In this document: in pieces, positions 20,158-32,717 of the stretch
Layout: each line of letters opens with the position of its first letter
How positions within the stretch are numbered: the stretch's first letter is position 1
Source: Laetmonice hystrix
Taxonomy: Eukaryota
Length of the DNA stretch: 64,000 nt
Reading direction: 5' to 3'
Assembly: GCA_965235115.1 (NCBI GenBank)
Contig: OZ249436.1
Coordinates: 8,124,001 to 8,188,000, forward strand
The notes under the pieces: model-generated
Databases searched by the model: none
What the model saw: the letters and a program-made list of their open reading frames with translations, nothing else
Told to the model about the DNA's origin: nothing
Made by a program: the position numbers and the translations under genes

Positions 20158-20882
20158 GCCAGGTATCTATGTCAATCTCCTGCTTTAATCTGACCAGTGT
20201 CTTTCAGCCACCAATATTTTACTGGCCAGGTATCTATGTCAATCTCCTGCTTAAATCTGACCAGTGTCTATCAGCCACCAATATTTTACTGGCCAGGTAT
20301 CTATGTCAATCTCCTGCTTAAATCTGACCAGTGTCTTACAGCCGCCAATATTTTACTGGCCAGGTATCTATGTCAATCTCCTGCTTAAATCTGACGAGTG
20401 TCTATCAGCCACCAATATTTTACTGGCCAGGTATCTATGTCAATCTCCTGCTTAAATCTGACCAGTGTCTTACAGCCGCCAATATTTTACTGGCCAGGTA
20501 TCTATGTCAATCTCCTGCTTAAATCTGACCAGTGTCTTACAGCCGCCAATATTTTACTGGCCAGGTATCTATGTCAATCTCCTGCTTAAATCTGACCAGT
20601 GTCTTTCAGCCACCAATATTTTACTGGCCAGGTATCTATGTCAATCTCCTGCTTAAATCTGACCAGTGTCTTTCAGCCACCAATATTTTACTGGCCAGGT
20701 ATCTATGTCAATCTCCTGCTTAAATCTGACCAGTGTCTTTCAGCCACCAATATTTTACTGGCCAGGTATCTATGTCAATCTCCTGCTTAAATCTGACCAG
20801 TGTCTTTCAGCCACCAATATTTTACTGGCCAGGTATCTATGTCAATCTCCAGCTTAAATCTCGTGTCTTTCAGCCCCCAATA
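20158..20882. repeat. 67-bp minisatellite, ~11 copies, in CK1-gamma intron
   Basis: Unit gccaggtatctatgtcaatctcctgcttaaatctgaccagtgtctttcagccaccaatattttactg. Confidence 0.95.
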
Positions 20883-21262
20883 GTGATCTGGAGATTTGTC
20901 TTGAAGTTAAAGACAGCATTTTGAAAGTATCTGGCAGCGTCTGTACTGTCCCATAGATGTGTCCTGCACAAAGGTGTAAATAAACTAGCAACTCTTTTTA
21001 GCAAATGATAGTTCATGAACATGAATTTTCATTTTTACCACCACCTTTTGGTATTGTTACTGGTAGATGGTGTTAGAAATGATAAACACTCAACTTTCTC
21101 CTAGCTTGTGAGTAATTATATCAAACAATCATTTCGTTATCTTATTGTTAGCTATTTCCCTGTCTGGCAGATGATGAAATTCCTGAGTCTGGTGCAACTA
21201 ACTCTGTGACTATGTAAATAAAAATATTGACAGCCCGTGATATTGTGATGTTTTCTTTGCAG

Positions 21263-21411
21263 ATGAACTAGCTACATATCTACGATATGTGCGGAGGTTA
21301 GACTTCTTCGAAACCCCCGACTACGACTACTTACGGAAACTCTTTACAGATCTCATGGTACAAAAGGGCTGGGAAATAGATTGGGAGTTTGACTGGACGG
21401 GGCGCCAGTTG
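21263..21411 (+). CDS. CSNK1G: CK1-gamma exon ([50 protein letters not shown])
   Basis: tttgcag/gtaagt; end of kinase domain (PDYDYLR...FDW). Confidence 0.96.
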
Positions 21412-22456
21412 GTAAGTTGCTGCTTGTGAAGATGATACCAATATCCCAGTCAAAACGGTTCAGTTCGTAGTTTTTTTTCCTAGCAGTATATCATCGTAGT
21501 TTTACTTAACGTTGTGGTCAAACCTTAAGTTTTTGGTCTGTAAAAGTAATAATTTGGCCTGATCTTGAGCTGATGTACGGTGTCTTTGATAGAACTTTTT
21601 TGTATACAGGTCCAGTCAGTAGGACCGTCTTTAATGGTATAGATGGGTCCTTCGATGGATACCACTATGGAGAGTTTGTAGTTTCCTTGACTACAATTAA
21701 CTTTTTTGGCTGTCAGTTTAGGAAGTTTCTGAGGATGCAAAGTACAAAATATCTGTAAACGATTTAACATTTTAAACATTAGGACTACCACAAAGTTTAT
21801 TGTAATACATGAAGTCCAGTAACACAAACCAGCAGCATATTAAATTTGTTTTTCTACACTTTCAAATTGTCTAGCTCTAAAGTACTTTATTTGGATCACC
21901 TTCATCAGCAAAAGAAAGCCTTTTGGTGATACACCAGAAACATTTTTTTCCCGCAGTCCCAATCTGCAGTACGTAGAAATATAACATGTTGAGTTGTCAA
22001 TGTCGCAATATTATTTGACTAATATCAATTATGCTAACATTTAAGTGGTAGAAAGCATTTGGGCAAATGTTGAGTTGTGACATTGTGGTATCGATTGAAA
22101 CTGACTGGGCCTGATTTACTGGCATTGGTTTGGCTGATAGAGGAGATGGGTTGGCCGGTATGGAGTGATGCTGGGAATCCATTGGCTGCAGAACTCGACC
22201 ACGTTGCCCAAATCCATGCTAGCATCAGGGAGGGAAGTTAGTAGTGGGGATAGGTGATGCATGTTGCCTCCTTCACAGGGATCTGTGCTCCCATAGCTGA
22301 CAAGCCTGCTGTCATTGTGTGTGTGCGTGTGTTCGATCAGCCTCCCGCAGCCCTCACCCCCACCGGTGCGTGCTTGGGTGCGTGCATGTGTGCGTGCATT
22401 GGGTGTGGGTGCGTGAGCGAGCCGTTATCACGAGGTGTGCATCCACTTTGTTGCAG

Positions 22457-22546
22457 TCGACCCCAGTTTCAATACATACAACAGACGGCGCCATGTCGCC
22501 CGCGCGGGACGACGACAGGAAACGACCCGCCAACCAACCCAACAAG
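22457..22546 (+). CDS. CSNK1G: CK1-gamma tail exon (STPVSIHTTDGAMSPARDDDRKRPANQPNK)
   Basis: ttgcag/gtgagg; 90 nt, phase 0-0; begins like the vertebrate PTPV tail segment. Confidence 0.8.
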
Positions 22547-23708
22547 GTGAGGTCACAGCCTCCATGGCCACACACAATCTACCACAACTCGCAAAACTTC
22601 TCAGAATCTAGTCTCGACGCACCACAGCTTTCGGCCCAGTGTGAAATTGATAATGCGAAATAAAAGGTGGATCGTGGTATTTCCGGACAAGAGGTGGAAG
22701 CAGATTTTTCTCTTTCTAGAAATCAGTCTACTCTGCATCATTAATTTCACTGATCAGCCATCCGAGTTTTGGTGAAATAGTGCCAATTTATTATAGTAAC
22801 ATACTGTAGGGGAGTACCACTGAAAACAGGTGAACAGGACAGTAGAAGCGGTTGAAAATACCCACTGATACCACCATGTTTGCCAGCAGAGAAAGGGATA
22901 CGAGCAATGTCAAAATCTAGAGAGGTCATGATGGTTTTTAGACAACCATAACTAAGGTGAAGCTAAATAGAAAAAAAAAAACGAAAGCTTTAACCATGCC
23001 GCTTGATCATAGGCTGCTATCAAAAGACATTATGATGTTGTCATTCTAACATCTTATTTCTATGCATATTGTGCCATCATCACTTCTTTCGGGACCTAGC
23101 TAAGAGTATTCTTATCAATCAACTATATACTCTTGAGAAAAATATTCGGACACAAACTCTTTTTCGTCTTTGCCCGTTTACTTTATCAAAAGTGGTTCTG
23201 TGGTATTCATGATTATTTCAATTTAGGATCTTCCAGTATAAGGCTTTTTCAGAAGGGAAACAAAGTTACGTAGACCGAATGCCTTATAAGATAATATCTT
23301 GGCCGAAATTACATAGGTTGAAAAGACAGCAGAGCTGCATAAAAGAAACGCCCCAAAATGTCCATTCAGTCCATCACCTATTTAGTTTCTAAACCAAGTA
23401 ATATACGGAGGGAGACCCGTCAGTAAGATGTTGTATGAGATGTTTTGCCCAGGACGATTGGCCATCTCTGCACTGGATCAATATGTAATAACAGCCCAAA
23501 TTACACTTCTTTGTTTTTGTGACCTTTTGTTTTTGTTCCGTCATTTCCTTACTGTCGTAAACAGCCTTCAGACTGGAACTTTATTGTCTTCATCATTTGT
23601 CTTAAGAATTTTTAGTTCAAACATGAGAGCAGAAATTTGAATGGCCAAGCTTTTTTCCCTCTTCATTTCTTCTCTTTGTCCTCACTGTCCTCTTGTTGTG
23701 CCTTACAG

Positions 23709-23726
23709 AGTTGTTGCTTTAGTGGG
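23709..23726 (+). CDS. CSNK1G: Candidate 18-nt microexon (SCCFSG)
   Basis: ~58-nt AG-free pyrimidine tract, tgc motif ~10 nt upstream, cag acceptor, gtatgt donor, frame-preserving phase 0-0. Confidence 0.6.
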
Positions 23727-24236
23727 GTATGTATGAGTTTGGTGCACCACTAGTTGGAAGGACAGAGGAAAAAGGTAGCATGTAGTAATTAATGCAACTT
23801 ACCAGTCAGTGGTGCTGGAGATCGTTTTGATGACAAAGTGTGTCAATTCCTCAATTAATCTTGACCTGTAGTCATTTGGAGGCTAGAACTCTGTATTGGT
23901 CTGGTTTGTGTATGCATTTAGGTAGAAACAGGACTTCAAACACGCGTTTCTATTTACTTACTGGTACGTACAGTCAGGTGATTGATACTGAGTCAGCCAA
24001 AAGCATAATGAATGGCCAAGAGTTGTTCCCGTTAGGAAACGTAACACGTAAAAAAACAAAAAAAAGATTCAGCATGAATCTTGCATCCATCCAACAAACA
24101 CACATAAAAGTATGAAACCACACAGACATATAAACAAGACAAGTTCACATGAGACCTCCACAAAGTCTGACCATTTGAAGTGACCCTCTGGACTTCAACC
24201 TTGACAGGTATTTTAGTGTTAACTGTGTCTTGCTAG

Positions 24237-24278
24237 ATTGCTCTTTTGGAGAGGAGACGCCAGTTGGCCCCGATGAAG
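24237..24278 (+). CDS. CSNK1G: Candidate 42-nt cassette exon (IALLERRRQLAPMK)
   Basis: tcttgctag acceptor, AAG|gtagaa donor, phase 0-0, no stop; no homology recognised. Confidence 0.35.
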
Positions 24279-25299
24279 GTAGAACTTTGGCCGCCGTGTG
24301 AAAGTTGCTTCGTGTGCTGTTCTCCCCTTGCCCTAACCCTACATCCTCCTCCCTACCATCTACCCACTGCTCAGATTCCCCCCCGAAACTTTGGTCTGCT
24401 GCTTCTTACATCATCAACTAACTCTGGCTTGTTCATCATGGATTATGAGTTTGGTTTACATACATCAGTCATCTTCATACTGTTGTTAGTTATCTCTCTT
24501 TTTTTTCCTTCTTTTTTTACGACCACAGCGTGTATCTGTCAGTGGTCGAAATCTTTTGTACTATTGTCAATTAAAAAATTACACCTGAATTTACCTAATA
24601 TGGGGAAATACGGTTATAACAAGTGATGGTTGAAAATTATGTTACGTATATATGTGAGAAGTTGGATGCAAACATTGACATTATGACTTGCAAGGATGTG
24701 CCAGTACTAGCACTAACCTCTTACTCTGCTATCTCCATATAACATTTTGACTGAGGTGGAGTTTGCTGTGCATCAAAACATAAAAACACCAGACTTGACT
24801 GAGATGCTCAACATTTTCTGTTGGTAATTTGAAGTGAATGTTAAATAGAATAAGAAGGCTTGGCACTGAGGCTTCTGCCTCAAACAGAAGCTACATCTAT
24901 ATAAGGAGATACGGATTAAGACATTGCACTGATAATGAGCATGTAAATATTATATAATACATGTAGTCTATGTAGATCTATGTAAAGATGACTCAAAACG
25001 AGAGGCCTTTAATGATAGTACTGATGATAACGATGAAAATGTGGCAGGAATCTGAACAATGTTGGCATGTATACTAGCCGCACTTCTTGTCTGGTGGTTG
25101 GTTCCTTCCAAAATGCCTCCACCGTTTATAGACCACTGGCCGGCTATGCCGCCTTGTTAACCCATGATTGAATGTTGCCTTTCAGGGTTGCCCACTCTGT
25201 TTGTTATTTCCGATCCTGCCTGCCCGACCATGGCGGCCGGGACACACTGTACGAGCATCCACTGACCGCATCCTACTTTGATTCTCGGTTTTCTTGCAG

Positions 25300-25407
25300 C
25301 AGTCCGCAAATCAGCGGGGCACTGCATGGGGAGAGCCACCGAGGCAATCTAACAATTTGCTGGGAGCTAACCTAACGTCTGCCGATAGGCACGGGGGCTC
25401 CGTGCAG
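25300..25407 (+). CDS. CSNK1G: CK1-gamma tail exon (QSANQRGTAWGEPPRQSNNLLGANLTSADRHGGSVQ), NAGNAG acceptor
   Basis: ttcttgcag(cag)/gtatgg; ADRHGGSVQ matches the vertebrate CSNK1G1/3 tail. Confidence 0.92.
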
Positions 25408-26084
25408 GTATGGTGCCTTTGTCAAACAACCACGTTATGGGCAGTTTGAACCCATCAGCTAGCTGCTTTAAAAAAAATGCCAACCCCCCCCCCTCCTGAT
25501 CCTCGTCCTCCGACCCACCCGCCAACACCCAGTGATCCAGCCCACCCATAGCTTGTGGAATGCATGCACTCCCAGCCAGGGTCCCATTTCTTGGTGTTTT
25601 GTTTCGATTCCTGTTATTCAACAACTTGAGCCTGCCGACTTGGGCTGTTTTGCATGTGAAGCCATGGGCTTGGATGGTGTGGTGACATTGGTCGTCACGT
25701 GACGTTACCCATCCTCAGGTTTAACGTCGGTTAAGTGTGTTAGGTCCGTGAACATAGATTTACCGTACTCAGATATATACCAGCGCTTCAGTCTGGCACT
25801 GAGACAGGTTTTTGTGTGGAGACAAGACCCGCATGTAATTTGTAACGACAAGATATTTTTATACGGAAACCTTTCCCAGAGTCAGGATTGATAATTTGTG
25901 TTTTAGGCCTGTTCAGATTTGTTTCGGTAATAGGAATGGCTTTCGTAGTCGTCGTGTTCTTATGACGAGTGGCCGTTTAAATGAAGAGTGGCCATAAGCT
26001 CATCAGTCCGTGGTGCATTAAGAATGTGCTACACTTAAAGGTGAAAAAAAAACGAGCAGCATTAGAAATGTCAGTCCTGATTCT

Positions 26085-26684
26085 GCTGGCGACTGTCAGA
26101 CCGAGTTGTTAGTGTTAGGGATTGTTTTGTTGTGACGTCTGGAGGTTTGTCCAGTGTATGATGGCGACTGTCAGACCGAGTTGTTACTGTTAGGGATTGT
26201 TTTGTTGTGACGTCTGGCGGTTTGTCCAGTGTACGATGACGACTGTCAGACCGAGTTGTTACTGTTAGGGATTGTTTTGTTGTGACGTCTGGCGGTTTGT
26301 CCAGTGTACGCTGGCGACTGTCCGACTGAGTTGTTAATGTTAGGGATTGTTTTGTTGTGACGTCTGGCGGTTTGTCCAGTGTACGATGTCGACTGTCAGA
26401 CTGAGTTGTTAGTGTTAGGGATTGTTTTGTTGTGACGTCTGGCGGTTTGTCCAGTGTATGATGACGACTGTCAGACCGAGTTGTTACTGTTAGGGATTGT
26501 TTTGTTGTGACGTCTGGCGGTTTGTCCAGTGTACGCTGGCGACTGTCCGACTGAGTTGTTAATGTTAGGGATTGTTTTGTTGTGACGTCTGGCGGTTTGT
26601 CCAGTGTACGCTGGCGACTGTCAGACCGAGTTGTTACTGTTAGGGATTGTTTTGTTGTGACGTCTGGCGGTTTGTCCAGTGTAC
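26085..26684. repeat. 75-bp minisatellite, 8 copies
   Basis: 25-aa periodicity in the minus-strand ORF 26071-26691. Confidence 0.95.
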
Positions 26685-28011
26685 ACATCAATATGTAGGT
26701 ATGTAGTCCGGGGATAAGCCGTTACAAAGATAAGGCTGACAATGATAACCTTTTGTTTTGGTTGTCATAAAGACCTGCTCCTCTTGTCAACGATTAGTCA
26801 AGTACCGGTAGTCTGTGTCAAAGCTTTAGGATTAATGATAGGTGGTAGTTGACAATGAAGATTACAGAATATAGACGATTAACCTCATTGCACGGACATG
26901 AGATCATGTTGGTGTGTACACGGGACGCTAGGAGTAAGGAAATGCATGTTTGATCTGAGATAATTTTTGCATTTCGTTTCATTCCCTTCCCCCTTTCTTC
27001 ACTTATATCCTTAAGTATATATTACGTTGTTGTATTGATTTTGAATACGTGTGTACACGTATACTTTCACCCGTTCTGATTCTAACGCCTTCAGCTGTGC
27101 TGATATTGCTGATAGGAACAGATTTTTGAGTTTCTATTATAAATAGGCCGGGGGGAAATCGAAGTGATTGACAGCCGTTCAGTCCACATCCGTTTATGGT
27201 CTGGCGTTACGTTTCATTTCTATAATATAGAGGGGGGGGGGGCAGTAGTAGAGTGATTTTAATAACGACTTTTGGAGTTACTCGCTACCAAAATTTCAAA
27301 GTGGTTTGCCTTTAGGTGAAAGCTTTCTGCAGCTGTGGATTTGGAAGATTTCTGTTGTACAGAGAGAGGCGCCATTATCCGCAGTCCGACGTTTTCAGGT
27401 CTCTGACTGTGTTTTCCACCAGGTGGCGCGGTAGTTCTTGTCTGCACTCGTACATAATCTGGAAAAGTTCTAATAGTAACCGACAGATGGTGCTTTGCAA
27501 AATGTAGGTCGTCGGTATGGGTATGCGGCAGCACCGTCTTACACTGCTGTTCAGCAAGGACATTTGGTAAAAAATGTATCATTTGTAATAATCAACAGTT
27601 TATGGGTCATGGACGACTTTGAACCAGGAAATATTGACCATATGGTTTATGTAAGAAATGGGTAGAAAACCTTCAGTTCTGTCGTGAGACACCACGTGAG
27701 AATTGTTAAATACTTTCATGCTCTGTCGGGCTAATGCTCAACAGCAGTGCTAATAATATGCCTTGTGTGTCTAGACATAACCAGCTAGACTTTAGTGAAG
27801 CAACCATATCAGCGATTCTAAGCTAAAAAACCTGAGTTTATTTTCAACGATTCGCAGAATCATGAAATTGATCAGACGGCCTTGCCATATAAAACCTCTT
27901 GCACTTTAGAAATGTTTGAAAAGATGGTCAGATGATGTAAGCCTTGGGTGAGGGATTGCTGGTTGCTTGGCAAGTCAGTGTCAAGCTGGATAAATCCAAG
28001 AGAGGAATGAA

Positions 28012-28816: not shown

Positions 28817-28923
28817 GTGGTGAGCTCGACGAATGGTGACGTCACAGGAGACGACCCTACTGCAGGACACTCCAACACTCCCATCACTGCCCCAGCTGAG
28901 GTGGAGGTTGTCGACGAGACCAA
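28817..28923 (+). CDS. CSNK1G: CK1-gamma tail exon ([36 protein letters not shown])
   Basis: tgtcag/gtgcgt; CK1gamma C-terminal domain [25 protein letters not shown]; ends phase 2. Confidence 0.95.
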
Positions 28924-29633
28924 GTGCGTATACATTTCTATAGTTATCTTTTAACCAATGTGGAGTAGGACTACTAACCTTCAAACTATGTGTTTGAAAA
29001 TGGCTTGAAACAAAAGGTTGTGTGATTATTAAAGCAGAGGTAAAATTTGAACAAGTTCCAATTCCAGTTGTGTCGATTTCTTAGTGTAAACTGCACAGAC
29101 AAAATCGCCTATTGAAAAAGACGATCGTCCCCCCCCCCCCCAATGTTGACATTTTCATGCTGGGAGAATGAGTACCAACACATAGCTTGATCTAATGTCT
29201 ATCTGATTGTCGTGTACACGTTTGCTAATACTACGAAATCAGTCCTATGAACATAGGATCTTATGTGCAGCATATTTGCTAGCAGTCATGTGGTGATTTC
29301 TTCGGTAGGGGAATTGTTCTTCTGTTACATATTTTACCTCCGCTTTAACAAATATACTAAAGGATCAAGGTATAATGTATAGATATTGCCTGATATAGGT
29401 ATATAAATAAATTGATTTAAGGATAGTAGTGAAATAGGGAAGGCCAACAGAAATATCTATCCAGGCTGTTTAGTCACTGAACGGTATGCTCATTTTATAA
29501 AAATAAACCAAAACCTAATGAAAGTTTCTACACCACATGGGGACAGCCATTCGTAAACCGTCCTGACATTACGCCTGCTTGGCGGGTAGATTGGTACGGG
29601 TTAAATACATTTGAATTGCATATCACCATTATA

Positions 29634-30487
29634 TCGGGTGGATAAAAAAAAACGCCCCGAACTTTAAACTTTAATATTTCAATAACTTTGCATTATAATT
29701 CAATAAAATTTCTCGTAATATAACTTCATGATATTATCTCTTGTATGTTAAGGTTTCAGTTCAATAGCTTTAATATTAATCCCGTGGCGCTAAAAACAAA
29801 AATCAGTGTCTAAAAACACAATGCCGGAATTAGGTCAAATATCATGCAGCTGCCAGGTGTCCAATTTGACACCTGTTTGATGCACCGCATTGTATCTTGG
29901 CTAAAAAAGTTTTCAATATTTAGTTTTTGCATGTTTTACAATATGTATAATGTTGTGAACCACTAGATATAATAAATTATGTGCTATTCCTAGTACTTCT
30001 AGAGAAAAACAGATGTTTAATGTGCCAAACCCTACAAAGAAACTGCAACATTAGGACGATATGACTGTAACCAGAAGTTTAAGGGAAATCGTATCATTAT
30101 CACGTTTAGCAACACGTTCAGAACGCTGCTTATTTCCCAATAATGGGAAGACAATTCCCTATCAGAGATCAGGAAGTGCATTGGCACATGAAAAAAGAGA
30201 CTGAGAGCAGTTTGAAGTGAAAACGGGGGACCGATTGACCACCTACTCAGTGTGAAGCCAGGGACTCTGGGTGCGACTACCACTCGCTTTAGCCCGGCAT
30301 TGCACTTTTGTACAATGATTTTTGTTTTCAGCGCTACGGAAATATTATCCAAGCTATTGAGTTGTAACATTAACAACTAAGAGACGACATCATGAAGTGA
30401 TAGTAGGAAAAATTTCATTGAATTACAATCAATACTTTTTGAAATATTGAAGTTTAAAGTTCGGGGCGTTTTTTTTTATCCACCCGA
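29634..30487 (+). mobile_element. Tc1/mariner deletion derivative with ~185-bp imperfect TIRs and TA TSD
   Basis: ta-tcgggtggataaaaaaaaacgccccgaactttaaact.. and its inverse; decayed transposase C-terminus WEDNSLSEIRKCIGT*KKRLRAV*SENGGPIDHLL at ~30144-30248. Confidence 0.85.
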
Positions 30488-31304
30488 TATTTGTGCATTA
30501 TATTCAAATGCTAAATATCCTGTAATGTTTTTCCTTAAACTGTTTTTTTCCCCCTAAAAAATCTTTTTTGATAAGTGATTATACGGTAGTTAGGCGAACT
30601 GATTTGGAGTTCATTTCAGATTGAGTACTCTGCAGTGTTATTTTTGATTAATATTTATGTTAATATTGTTGTTAAATCATGATTTTGTCATGATAACTTT
30701 ATAGCACATGAACCCGAATTTCTGTTTTGATTGCTATGATAAACGCATGTTACTACCAGTAGAATTTGTTTAGAAATTTCAGGGAATGTTACTTAAAACT
30801 TGGCTACAGCAGGTGTAGTGTATTACTGCGAGCGTCTGGCTGCTCCCATGTGGTTAAATAAACAAGGTATCCGCTACAGCGTTTGGTCTGGTGTTCACGA
30901 GGCAGCCTTGGTTTTTATTTGGAGATGCAAACCTTTCTTTTAATAGAAGAGAGTTGAGAAAACGTTGGAATAAGAACTAAATCAGGAAAGTCAAAAGCTG
31001 GTGGGCTAGTTGGGGTATTAAGGATTCAGTAGATTGAGTACTAGTTGTTAGTCAGTCATTTTCAATTGCCAGTTCTATATAGAAATGGAAATAATTCGAC
31101 CTGTTTAAATTGAAGCTGTTATTTTGTGTGGACAAAGATTGTGTTGGTTGGGGTTGATTTGTGTATTTCGACGTCCTTGCCTATGTCTGGGTGATGCTGA
31201 CTGATACATTGTATATATGATACATACAGGTGGCATGCTGGTGCTGCTACATGCTGTCTGCTGCCTTTCCTACCTTGACACTCAAACCCACATCTTTCTT
31301 TTAG

Positions 31305-31353
31305 GTGCTGTTTCTTCCGGCGCCGCAAGAAAAAGAAGACCCGACAGACGTAA
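31305..31353 (+). CDS. CSNK1G: CK1-gamma proximal last coding exon (K-CCFFRRRKKKKTRQT*)
   Basis: ctttcttttag acceptor; phase 2 completes AAG; Cys pair plus polybasic tail; TAA at 31351-31353. Confidence 0.88.
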
Positions 31354-32662: not shown

Positions 32663-32717
32663 GTGTTGCTGCTTCTATAGGCCGAAGAAAAAGAAAAAGG
32701 CGAAGCGGCAGAAATGA
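32663..32717 (+). CDS. CSNK1G: CK1-gamma distal alternative last coding exon (K-CCCFYRPKKKKKAKRQK*)
   Basis: tgctttgtag acceptor; phase 2; TKCCCF resembles human TKCCCFFKR; TGA at 32715-32717. Confidence 0.88.

What the first reader, a model, noticed from the sequence alone, without database searches (positions are those of the whole stretch)
23651..23732. Candidate 18-nt microexon adding an internal CCF motif (SCCFSG) to the CK1-gamma tail
Seen: long AG-free pyrimidine tract with ctcac branch-like site, TGC ~10 nt upstream of the exon, AGT TGT TGC TTT AGT GGG, strong gtatgt donor, and GCATG at 23778. Known: upstream UGC plus extended pyrimidine tract typifies neural microexons of the Srrm (eMIC) program in bilaterians. 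Inference: inclusion adds a second di-cysteine resembling the terminal CCF, possibly a neuron-specific extra acylation site. Standard annotation would probably miss it.
Basis: partly seen in the sequence, partly recalled or inferred. Interest (0 to 1): 0.7.

Follow-up and report, generated by a model that had tools for sequence, protein, structure and literature searches.

The report
Candidate cysteine-pair microexon in CK1-gamma
An intron of the membrane-anchored kinase gene CK1-gamma, in a probable segmented worm, holds an 18-base stretch with the splice signals typical of nerve-cell microexons; it would add a second cysteine pair that might be lipid-modified, but nothing found here shows that it is ever spliced in.

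Summary
At 23709-23726, in a phase-0 intron of an annelid-like CK1-gamma gene, 18 nt reading SCCFSG lie between a CAG acceptor and a GTATGT donor. Upstream are a 57-nt AG-free, 86% pyrimidine tract and a TGC 10 nt before the exon. It is the only such site on either strand of the window; a Markov null gives about 0.006 per gene. Bivalves carry unrelated 7-12-residue cassettes in the same intron, and vertebrates have a neural Cys-bearing microexon elsewhere in this tail. Against it: 0 of 388 homologous tails have a mid-tail CC, and four complete annelid-like orthologous introns lack the element. A predicted hairpin buries its UGC and both splice sites. The one spliced data set neither includes nor skips it. 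Verdict: probably (about 0.58) a real, lineage-restricted, normally skipped microexon of a known kind. Neuron-specific extra acylation is plausible but untested (about 0.15 overall). The scan noted similar candidates in other genes of this genome; no look-up returned this element on other DNA. Side finding: a spliced contig implies a TG acceptor at 22452-22453, where relatives have CAGCAG.

The parts
23709..23726 (+). candidate 18-nt phase-0 microexon, encodes SCCFSG
   Evidence: sequence and translation; single copy in the window at up to 3 mismatches; use not shown
23650..23706 (+). AG-exclusion zone / extended polypyrimidine tract (57 nt, 86% C+T)
23681..23685 (+). CTCAC, branch-point-like (fits yTnAy, recalled consensus; not the CUAAY of fly eMIC exons)
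   Evidence: role inferred
23699..23701 (+). TGC (UGC) motif 10 nt upstream of the exon
   Evidence: role inferred
23706..23708 (+). CAG acceptor
23727..23732 (+). GTATGT donor; a weaker overlapping donor at 23731 (GTATGA) would give a 22-nt frameshifting exon with an early stop
23698..23730 (+). predicted 14-pair hairpin (6 G-U) pairing the UGC and acceptor with the exon and donor
   Evidence: prediction only
23778..23782 (+). GCATG, RBFOX-like pentamer (motif name recalled), weak
22457..22546 (+). upstream tail exon A (STPV...PNK); a spliced contig enters 3 nt earlier, at 22454
25300..25407 (+). downstream exon B (QSANQRG...GGSVQ), CAGCAG acceptor; a cassette exon in relatives
28817..28923 (+). 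exon C (VVSSTNG...DETK)
31305..31353 (+). terminal exon 1, coding part (CCFF plus basic run)
32663..32717 (+). terminal exon 2, coding part (CCCFY plus basic run)

Best explanation
The 18 bases at 23709-23726 sit in frame between an acceptor and a donor in the tail-coding part of a CK1-gamma gene and are likely a real, lineage-restricted microexon that is normally skipped and would be included in a subset of cells, probably neurons. Shown by sequence: frame, splice dinucleotides, long AG-free pyrimidine tract, UGC. Inferred mechanism: the exon is too short for default exon definition, and its UGC, acceptor and donor are predicted to pair in a hairpin, so it is skipped. Where the Srrm234 eMIC isoform is made, eMIC with U2AF/SF1 would engage the unpaired tract and the UGC and promote inclusion. 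Inclusion would insert SCCFSG right after a basic patch (RKR...K), 77 residues (41 without exon B) before the terminal cysteines. The kinase is already held at membranes by its terminal acylated, basic tail, so the new CC could be S-acylated as a second anchor that would tune membrane retention or sorting rather than catalysis. My odds: exon really used 0.58; eMIC/neural if used 0.65; acylated if used 0.4.
For: Unique eMIC-like site on both strands of the window; null about 0.006 per gene. Across 128 kb per strand (window plus 12 loci) the full pattern gave 2 sense hits and 0 antisense, both in the A-B intron of a CK1-gamma gene. Long AG exclusion, UGC near the 3' site and a long pyrimidine tract define eMIC exons (PMC8797185 section 10); UGC is present in 74-79% of SRRM3/4 microexons (bioRxiv 2024.09.17.613571 section 10). 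By protein isoforms, the same intron hosts independent small cassettes in scallops (12 aa, seen with or without exons A and B) and oysters (7 aa). The tail is a microexon hot spot: mouse Csnk1g1 24-nt exon listed 'Neural', fly gish 9-nt 'MIC' (PMC8797185 table S2 rows). CC occurs in 1.1% and CCF in 0.07% of 10,795 stop-free intronic 18-mers (test chosen after the fact). Fly and mouse eMIC targets barely overlap, so deep conservation is not expected. One DNA contig (X3) lists no differing letter in 23651-23736 but five events in a second pyrimidine tract of the same intron at 24498-24511 (weak, and 9 of 49 rows were not shown). Terminal cysteines and the nearby basic run govern CK1-gamma localisation (PMC9254030 passages).
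Against: 0 of 388 CK1-gamma mid-tails (246 distinct, from 432 stored proteins; 44 lacked the anchor motifs and were dropped) contain CC, CxC or CF; only 20 contain any Cys. 0 of 4 further tails among 147 new proteins. About 20 of these rows look annelid; 4 taxa are named (Owenia, Ridgeia, Lamellibrachia, Helobdella). No eMIC-like in-frame candidate in 7 orthologous intron stretches scanned, 4 of them complete (L002, L004, L005, L006; L004 and L005 are close to each other), and no BLAST hit over the element. Two loose CC-coding AG..GT hits there (L002 1339, L003 1175) lack a pyrimidine tract. Neural microexons usually have an unpaired branch-point-to-3'-site region (PMC12871342 passages), whereas here its last 11 nt are predicted paired at probability 0.95 or more. 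No CUAAY branch motif. The internal CCF lacks the downstream basic run of the true anchor. A genome-wide scan will collect many chance look-alikes (my rough estimate: false and true sites of this pattern are of similar number).
Confidence: 0.58

Rival explanations
1. Pseudo-exon: a low-complexity pyrimidine run happens to end in CAG with a GT 18 nt later; the hairpin keeps it silent and the CC codons are a by-product of local UG-rich sequence.
For: No homologous peptide or intron element. Antisense look-alikes without TGC exist: 2 in the window, 4 rows over 128 kb. A second tract plus CAG in the same intron (24529) has only weak donors. The exon repeats the TTGTTG of its own upstream intron. 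Splice sites are predicted buried.
Against: The full pattern is rare under the null and absent from antisense DNA. Frame, phase and a CCF match coincide. The intron is a known host of small cassettes in bivalves.
Confidence: 0.32
2. A regulatory, non-coding element: the acceptor is used with the second donor (23731) to give a 22-nt frameshifting poison exon, or acts as a decoy or recursive 3' site that governs skipping of exon B.
For: The second GTATGA donor exists and gives an early stop in exon B. A vertebrate-like locus (L010 4346-4360) has a stop-containing 15-nt eMIC-like candidate in the same intron. Exon B is a cassette in many relatives.
Against: The first donor is the better match (6 against 5 of 9 positions). 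The L010 element has no sequence likeness and is itself unproven.
Confidence: 0.07
3. A decayed copy of the start of a terminal exon (CCF...), left by the duplication that produced the twin last exons.
For: It encodes CCF like both terminal exons.
Against: Local alignment scores to the two terminal-exon starts are 13 and 20, no better than to kinase-exon acceptors (21-23); 8% of 702 random pyrimidine-preceded YAG sites reach 20. The splice phase differs (0 against 2).
Confidence: 0.03

Closest known systems
eMIC (Srrm234 / SRRM3/4)-dependent neural microexons of bilaterians (PMC8797185; bioRxiv 10.1101/2024.09.17.613571)
   Same: Length under 28 nt, frame-preserving, long AG exclusion zone, extended pyrimidine tract, UGC close to the 3' splice site.
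   Different: Inclusion, neural enrichment and eMIC dependence untested; no CUAAY branch motif; 3' splice-site region predicted paired rather than accessible (PMC12871342).
Vertebrate CSNK1G1/CSNK1G3 24-nt microexon (nCLKMLNLw; mouse MmuEX0012932 'Neural'; zebrafish csnk1g1 in PMC12626420 supplements)
   Same: Same gene family, tail-coding microexon, adds a cysteine, neural in mouse Csnk1g1.
   Different: Different intron (just before the last exon, next to the terminal cysteines), different phase and sequence, one Cys rather than CC, scored without UGC in the zebrafish table; not orthologous.
Small cassette exons in the same A-B intron of bivalve CK1-gamma (scallop 12 aa, oyster 7 aa; RefSeq isoforms)
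   Same: Same intron position, short, in frame, independent of exon B.
   Different: Unrelated sequence, no cysteine; exon status inferred here from protein isoforms only.
C-terminal S-acylation motif of CK1-gamma (K-CC(C)F plus basic run; PMC9254030, PMC11417247)
   Same: K-x-CCF resembles K-CCF, with basic residues nearby.
   Different: Internal rather than terminal, basic residues upstream and fewer; acylation not tested.

Membership tests
CK1-gamma (host gene) | CK1 kinase exons plus gamma-type tail ending in CC(C)F and a basic run | tested here: met
   99% identity of one kinase exon to Lineus CK1; tail closest to annelid-like proteins
eMIC/SRRM-dependent neural microexon | 3-27 nt exon with AG and GT sites, frame-preserving | tested here: met
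   18 nt, phase 0; as sequence only
eMIC/SRRM-dependent neural microexon | long AG exclusion zone and extended pyrimidine tract | tested here: met
   57 nt, 86% pyrimidine; one TCTC only
eMIC/SRRM-dependent neural microexon | UGC close to the 3' splice site | tested here: met
   23699-23701
eMIC/SRRM-dependent neural microexon | strong branch point (CUAAY in fly) | tested here: inconclusive
   no CTRAY; CTCAC at 23681; the annelid consensus was not established
eMIC/SRRM-dependent neural microexon | accessible branch-point-to-3'-site region (a tendency, PMC12871342) | tested here: not met
   predicted paired at 23698-23708; prediction only, window-dependent
eMIC/SRRM-dependent neural microexon | spliced into mRNA | tested here: inconclusive
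   no contig bridges the intron in either form
eMIC/SRRM-dependent neural microexon | neural-enriched inclusion that depends on eMIC | not testable with these tools
   no tissue RNA, no perturbation; no whole genome held to look for Srrm234 eMIC
eMIC/SRRM-dependent neural microexon | conservation within the clade | tested here: inconclusive
   absent from distant annelid-like introns and proteins; no close relative available
S-acylation site | cytosolic cysteine near a membrane anchor, shown to carry a fatty acid | not testable with these tools
   context only (PMC9254030)

The most novel reading that the evidence does not exclude
A young, annelid-lineage neural microexon, gated by a hairpin that hides both of its splice sites, builds a second S-acylation site in the middle of the CK1-gamma tail, so that splicing rather than a palmitoyl-transferase cycle sets how tightly and where the kinase is held on neuronal membranes. 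This would converge on the vertebrate Cys-bearing CSNK1G1 microexon from a different intron.
Probability: 0.15. Interest if true: 0.6.

Novelty: new member of a known kind. Interest (0 to 1): 0.35.

Why it matters
CK1-gamma's substrate access is set by lipid anchoring: without its terminal cysteines it becomes nucleocytoplasmic and hyperactive on CERT (PMC9254030 passages). A microexon that adds an acylatable CC would be a direct way to tune this by cell type. It would also be a test case for how new eMIC targets arise in annelids: my search for microexon + annelid + neural found only one paper, unrelated by its listing. The caution is that most of 45 zebrafish microexon deletions had little effect (PMC12626420 abstract; csnk1g1 was among the mutants). 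If the exon is not used, it is an ordinary pseudo-exon.

Tried and rejected
RNA: no RNA holder listed. Run X4 proved to be spliced (one contig joins four exons), but on 21200-26050 only 2 X4 contigs were laid. One stops at 22528, the other starts at 25301, and none crosses the intron: no verdict on inclusion or skipping, and the lack of cover over 23709-23726 is not evidence. No whole genome is held, so no genome-wide calibration and no Srrm234 search. Homolog searches for a mid-tail CC: three protein searches, three cluster look-ups, one representative search; none found. The single metagenome scan went to exon-B loci, so no direct pattern scan for the microexon was made. Origin by terminal-exon duplication rejected. 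No inverted repeat or repeat family covers the exon among the largest listed; a 22-nt two-copy match (23638/24009) is treated as chance. Rfam: 0 matches on 21400-25500. The bacterial promoter/terminator scan is irrelevant to this animal gene. Folding of wider windows is not beyond chance (z -0.43 at 181 nt, -1.68 at 135 nt, -1.45 at 71 nt). A 3-nt CAG exon as the source of the extra codon before exon A was sought and not found. Literature searches showed no paper on an invertebrate CK1-gamma mid-tail microexon or, by their listings, on a microexon that adds an acylation site; only open-licence papers are searched, bioRxiv supplements are closed, and file 13 of PMC12626420 was not searched. No structure was predicted: six residues in a presumably disordered tail would not be informative.

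Full report
Setting. The window holds a CK1-gamma gene on the + strand: kinase exons near 370, 13420, 15629, 19947 and 21263, then tail exons A (22457-22546), B (25300-25407), C (28817-28923) and two terminal exons at 31305 and 32663. One kinase exon is 99% identical to a nemertean CK1. The tail is closest to unnamed annelid-like proteins and loci, with Owenia, Ridgeia and Lingula among the named neighbours. The animal is therefore probably an annelid (inference). No whole genome is held.

Observation. The intron is phase 0, so inclusion gives ...PNK-SCCFSG-QSAN... without a stop. With thresholds looser than the observed values it is the only hit on either strand of the window, and a Markov null predicts about 0.006 hits in this gene's introns. 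Over the window and 12 related loci (128 kb per strand) the full pattern gave 2 sense hits and 0 antisense; dropping the TGC rule gave 2 sense and 4 antisense rows. The thresholds are post hoc and real DNA has more low-complexity runs than the null, so the significance is real but smaller than the null suggests.

RNA. No RNA holder was listed, but run X4 is spliced: one contig joins four exons, and another joins B, C and the first terminal exon. On 21200-26050 only two X4 contigs were laid, ending at 22528 and starting at 25301. No verdict on the microexon follows.

Conservation. Of 432 stored proteins, 388 had a definable mid-tail (246 distinct). None has CC, CxC or CF there, and 20 have any cysteine; 0 of 4 more among 147 later proteins. 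About 20 rows look annelid, and many come from whole transcriptomes or gene models that would miss a rare microexon (inference). Twelve loci came from the metagenome scan. Four annelid-like ones span the whole A-B intron (L002, L004, L005, L006) and three cover part of it. None of these seven stretches passes a relaxed eMIC-type scan or aligns to the element; two loose CC-coding hits lack pyrimidine tracts. Their introns share no detectable similarity with ours at all, so they are too distant to test a young exon. In favour, protein isoforms show independent small cassettes in this same intron in scallops (12 aa) and oysters (7 aa), and further short inserts after exon B and before the last exon in other lineages.

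RNA structure. The element is predicted to fold into a 14-pair hairpin (23698-23730, 6 G-U pairs, each pair at probability 0.95 or more) that pairs the UGC and AG with the exon and donor. In tight windows it beats shuffles (z -4.1 and -3.8; 0 and 1 of 200), in wider ones it does not. 1.1% of 5,051 intronic 41-nt windows (14 loci) are as stable, and 1.3% of 5,000 exon-interior shuffles. The tight windows were chosen after seeing the hairpin. It cuts both ways: it offers a default-off switch, but neural microexons tend to be unpaired between branch point and 3' site (PMC12871342, passages).

Mechanism. Most likely (0.58) this is a real, normally skipped microexon. eMIC exons are marked by long AG exclusion, UGC near the 3' site, long pyrimidine tracts and strong branch points (PMC8797185, section 10 and passages). 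UGC is frequent but not essential (bioRxiv 2024.09.17.613571, abstract and section 10). Three of the four marks are met; the branch point is inconclusive. That paper places the origin of eMIC in bilaterian ancestors and finds almost no shared targets between fly and mouse, so an annelid-restricted target is unsurprising. The protein consequence is inferred: SCCFSG follows RKR...K and lies 77 or 41 residues before the terminal cysteines. Terminal cysteines plus a basic run localise human CK1-gamma (PMC9254030, passages; PMC11417247, passages). An already tethered tail could present an internal CC to an acyltransferase (general knowledge, untested). CC occurs in 1.1% and CCF in 0.07% of stop-free intronic 18-mers here, a suggestive but post hoc coincidence; the internal motif lacks the downstream basic run. 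The main rival (0.32) is a pseudo-exon. Poison-exon or decoy use (0.07) and a decayed terminal-exon copy (0.03) are minor.

Comparison. It works like an eMIC/SRRM microexon by anatomy; membership is unproven because inclusion and eMIC dependence could not be tested. The nearest known case in the family is the vertebrate 24-nt CSNK1G1 exon (nCLKMLNLw). It is listed 'Neural' in mouse (PMC8797185 supplement rows). In zebrafish its values rise from 0.005 to 0.39 over columns 12-72, which I take as hours and inclusion (PMC12626420 supplement rows and abstract). It lies in another intron and is not orthologous. Fly gish has a 9-nt low-inclusion microexon. PMC8911335 (one passage) was irrelevant. Searches showed no report of this element; closed supplements and subscription papers may bear on that.

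Side finding. The spliced X4 contig joins 21411 to 22454, keeping an extra CAG, so the intron would end in TG (one contig, depth 24.6). No 3-nt exon explains it. L004, L005 and L006 have CAGCAG here, and 8 stored proteins carry the extra Q or K. TG-AG tandem acceptors are known from 36 human genes, including GNAS with the same TG-CAG form (PMC2374985, abstract start and passages). An unseen allele in the RNA donor is not excluded; the X3 DNA contig lists no change there.

Verdict. Observation confirmed, interpretation partly supported. A good but unproven microexon candidate of a known kind; interest 0.35, or 0.6 if the neural second-anchor reading (probability about 0.15) proves true.

Noticed in passing
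window 22451-22456 (joint 21411 to 22454): A spliced X4 contig keeps an extra CAG before exon A, implying a TG 3' splice site in TTG-CAG where relatives have CAG-CAG; the extra Q/K is seen in 8 stored proteins. One contig; a hidden allele is not excluded.
   Followed up: partly
window 25297-25302: CAGCAG tandem acceptor of exon B; chiton and Gigantopelta isoforms show plus/minus Q here, and the X4 contig starting at 25301 fits a branch between the two forms.
   Followed up: partly
window 31305-31353 and 32663-32717: Two alternative terminal exons (CCFF and CCCFY tails); both types occur in molluscs, nemerteans, brachiopods and annelids; X4 shows the first joined to exon C.
   Followed up: partly
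L010 4346-4360: In a vertebrate-like CK1-gamma locus, a 15-nt eMIC-like candidate with an in-frame stop lies in the same A-B intron; if used it would cut off the acylated tail or trigger decay.
   Followed up: no
L002 about 1067-1168: A possible extra exon of about 102 nt resembling exon A (S/T-P-R rich) inside the A-B intron (read by eye).
   Followed up: no
window 24490-24537: Second pyrimidine tract plus CAG in the same intron with only weak donors (3 or 9 nt); polymorphic in the X3 contig, so probably non-functional.
   Followed up: partly
window 22351-22365: Weak in-frame 15-nt candidate (PSPPP) within a TG/CA-rich block upstream of exon A; short AG-free zone (read by eye).
   Followed up: no
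window 47762, minus strand: Microexon-like site (6 nt, 57-nt AG-free zone, GTAAGA donor, no TGC); host gene not identified.
   Followed up: no
window 20160-20870, 26070-26690 and 29630-30490: Two intronic minisatellite arrays and a very high-copy element of about 860 nt that some DNA contigs lack.
   Followed up: no
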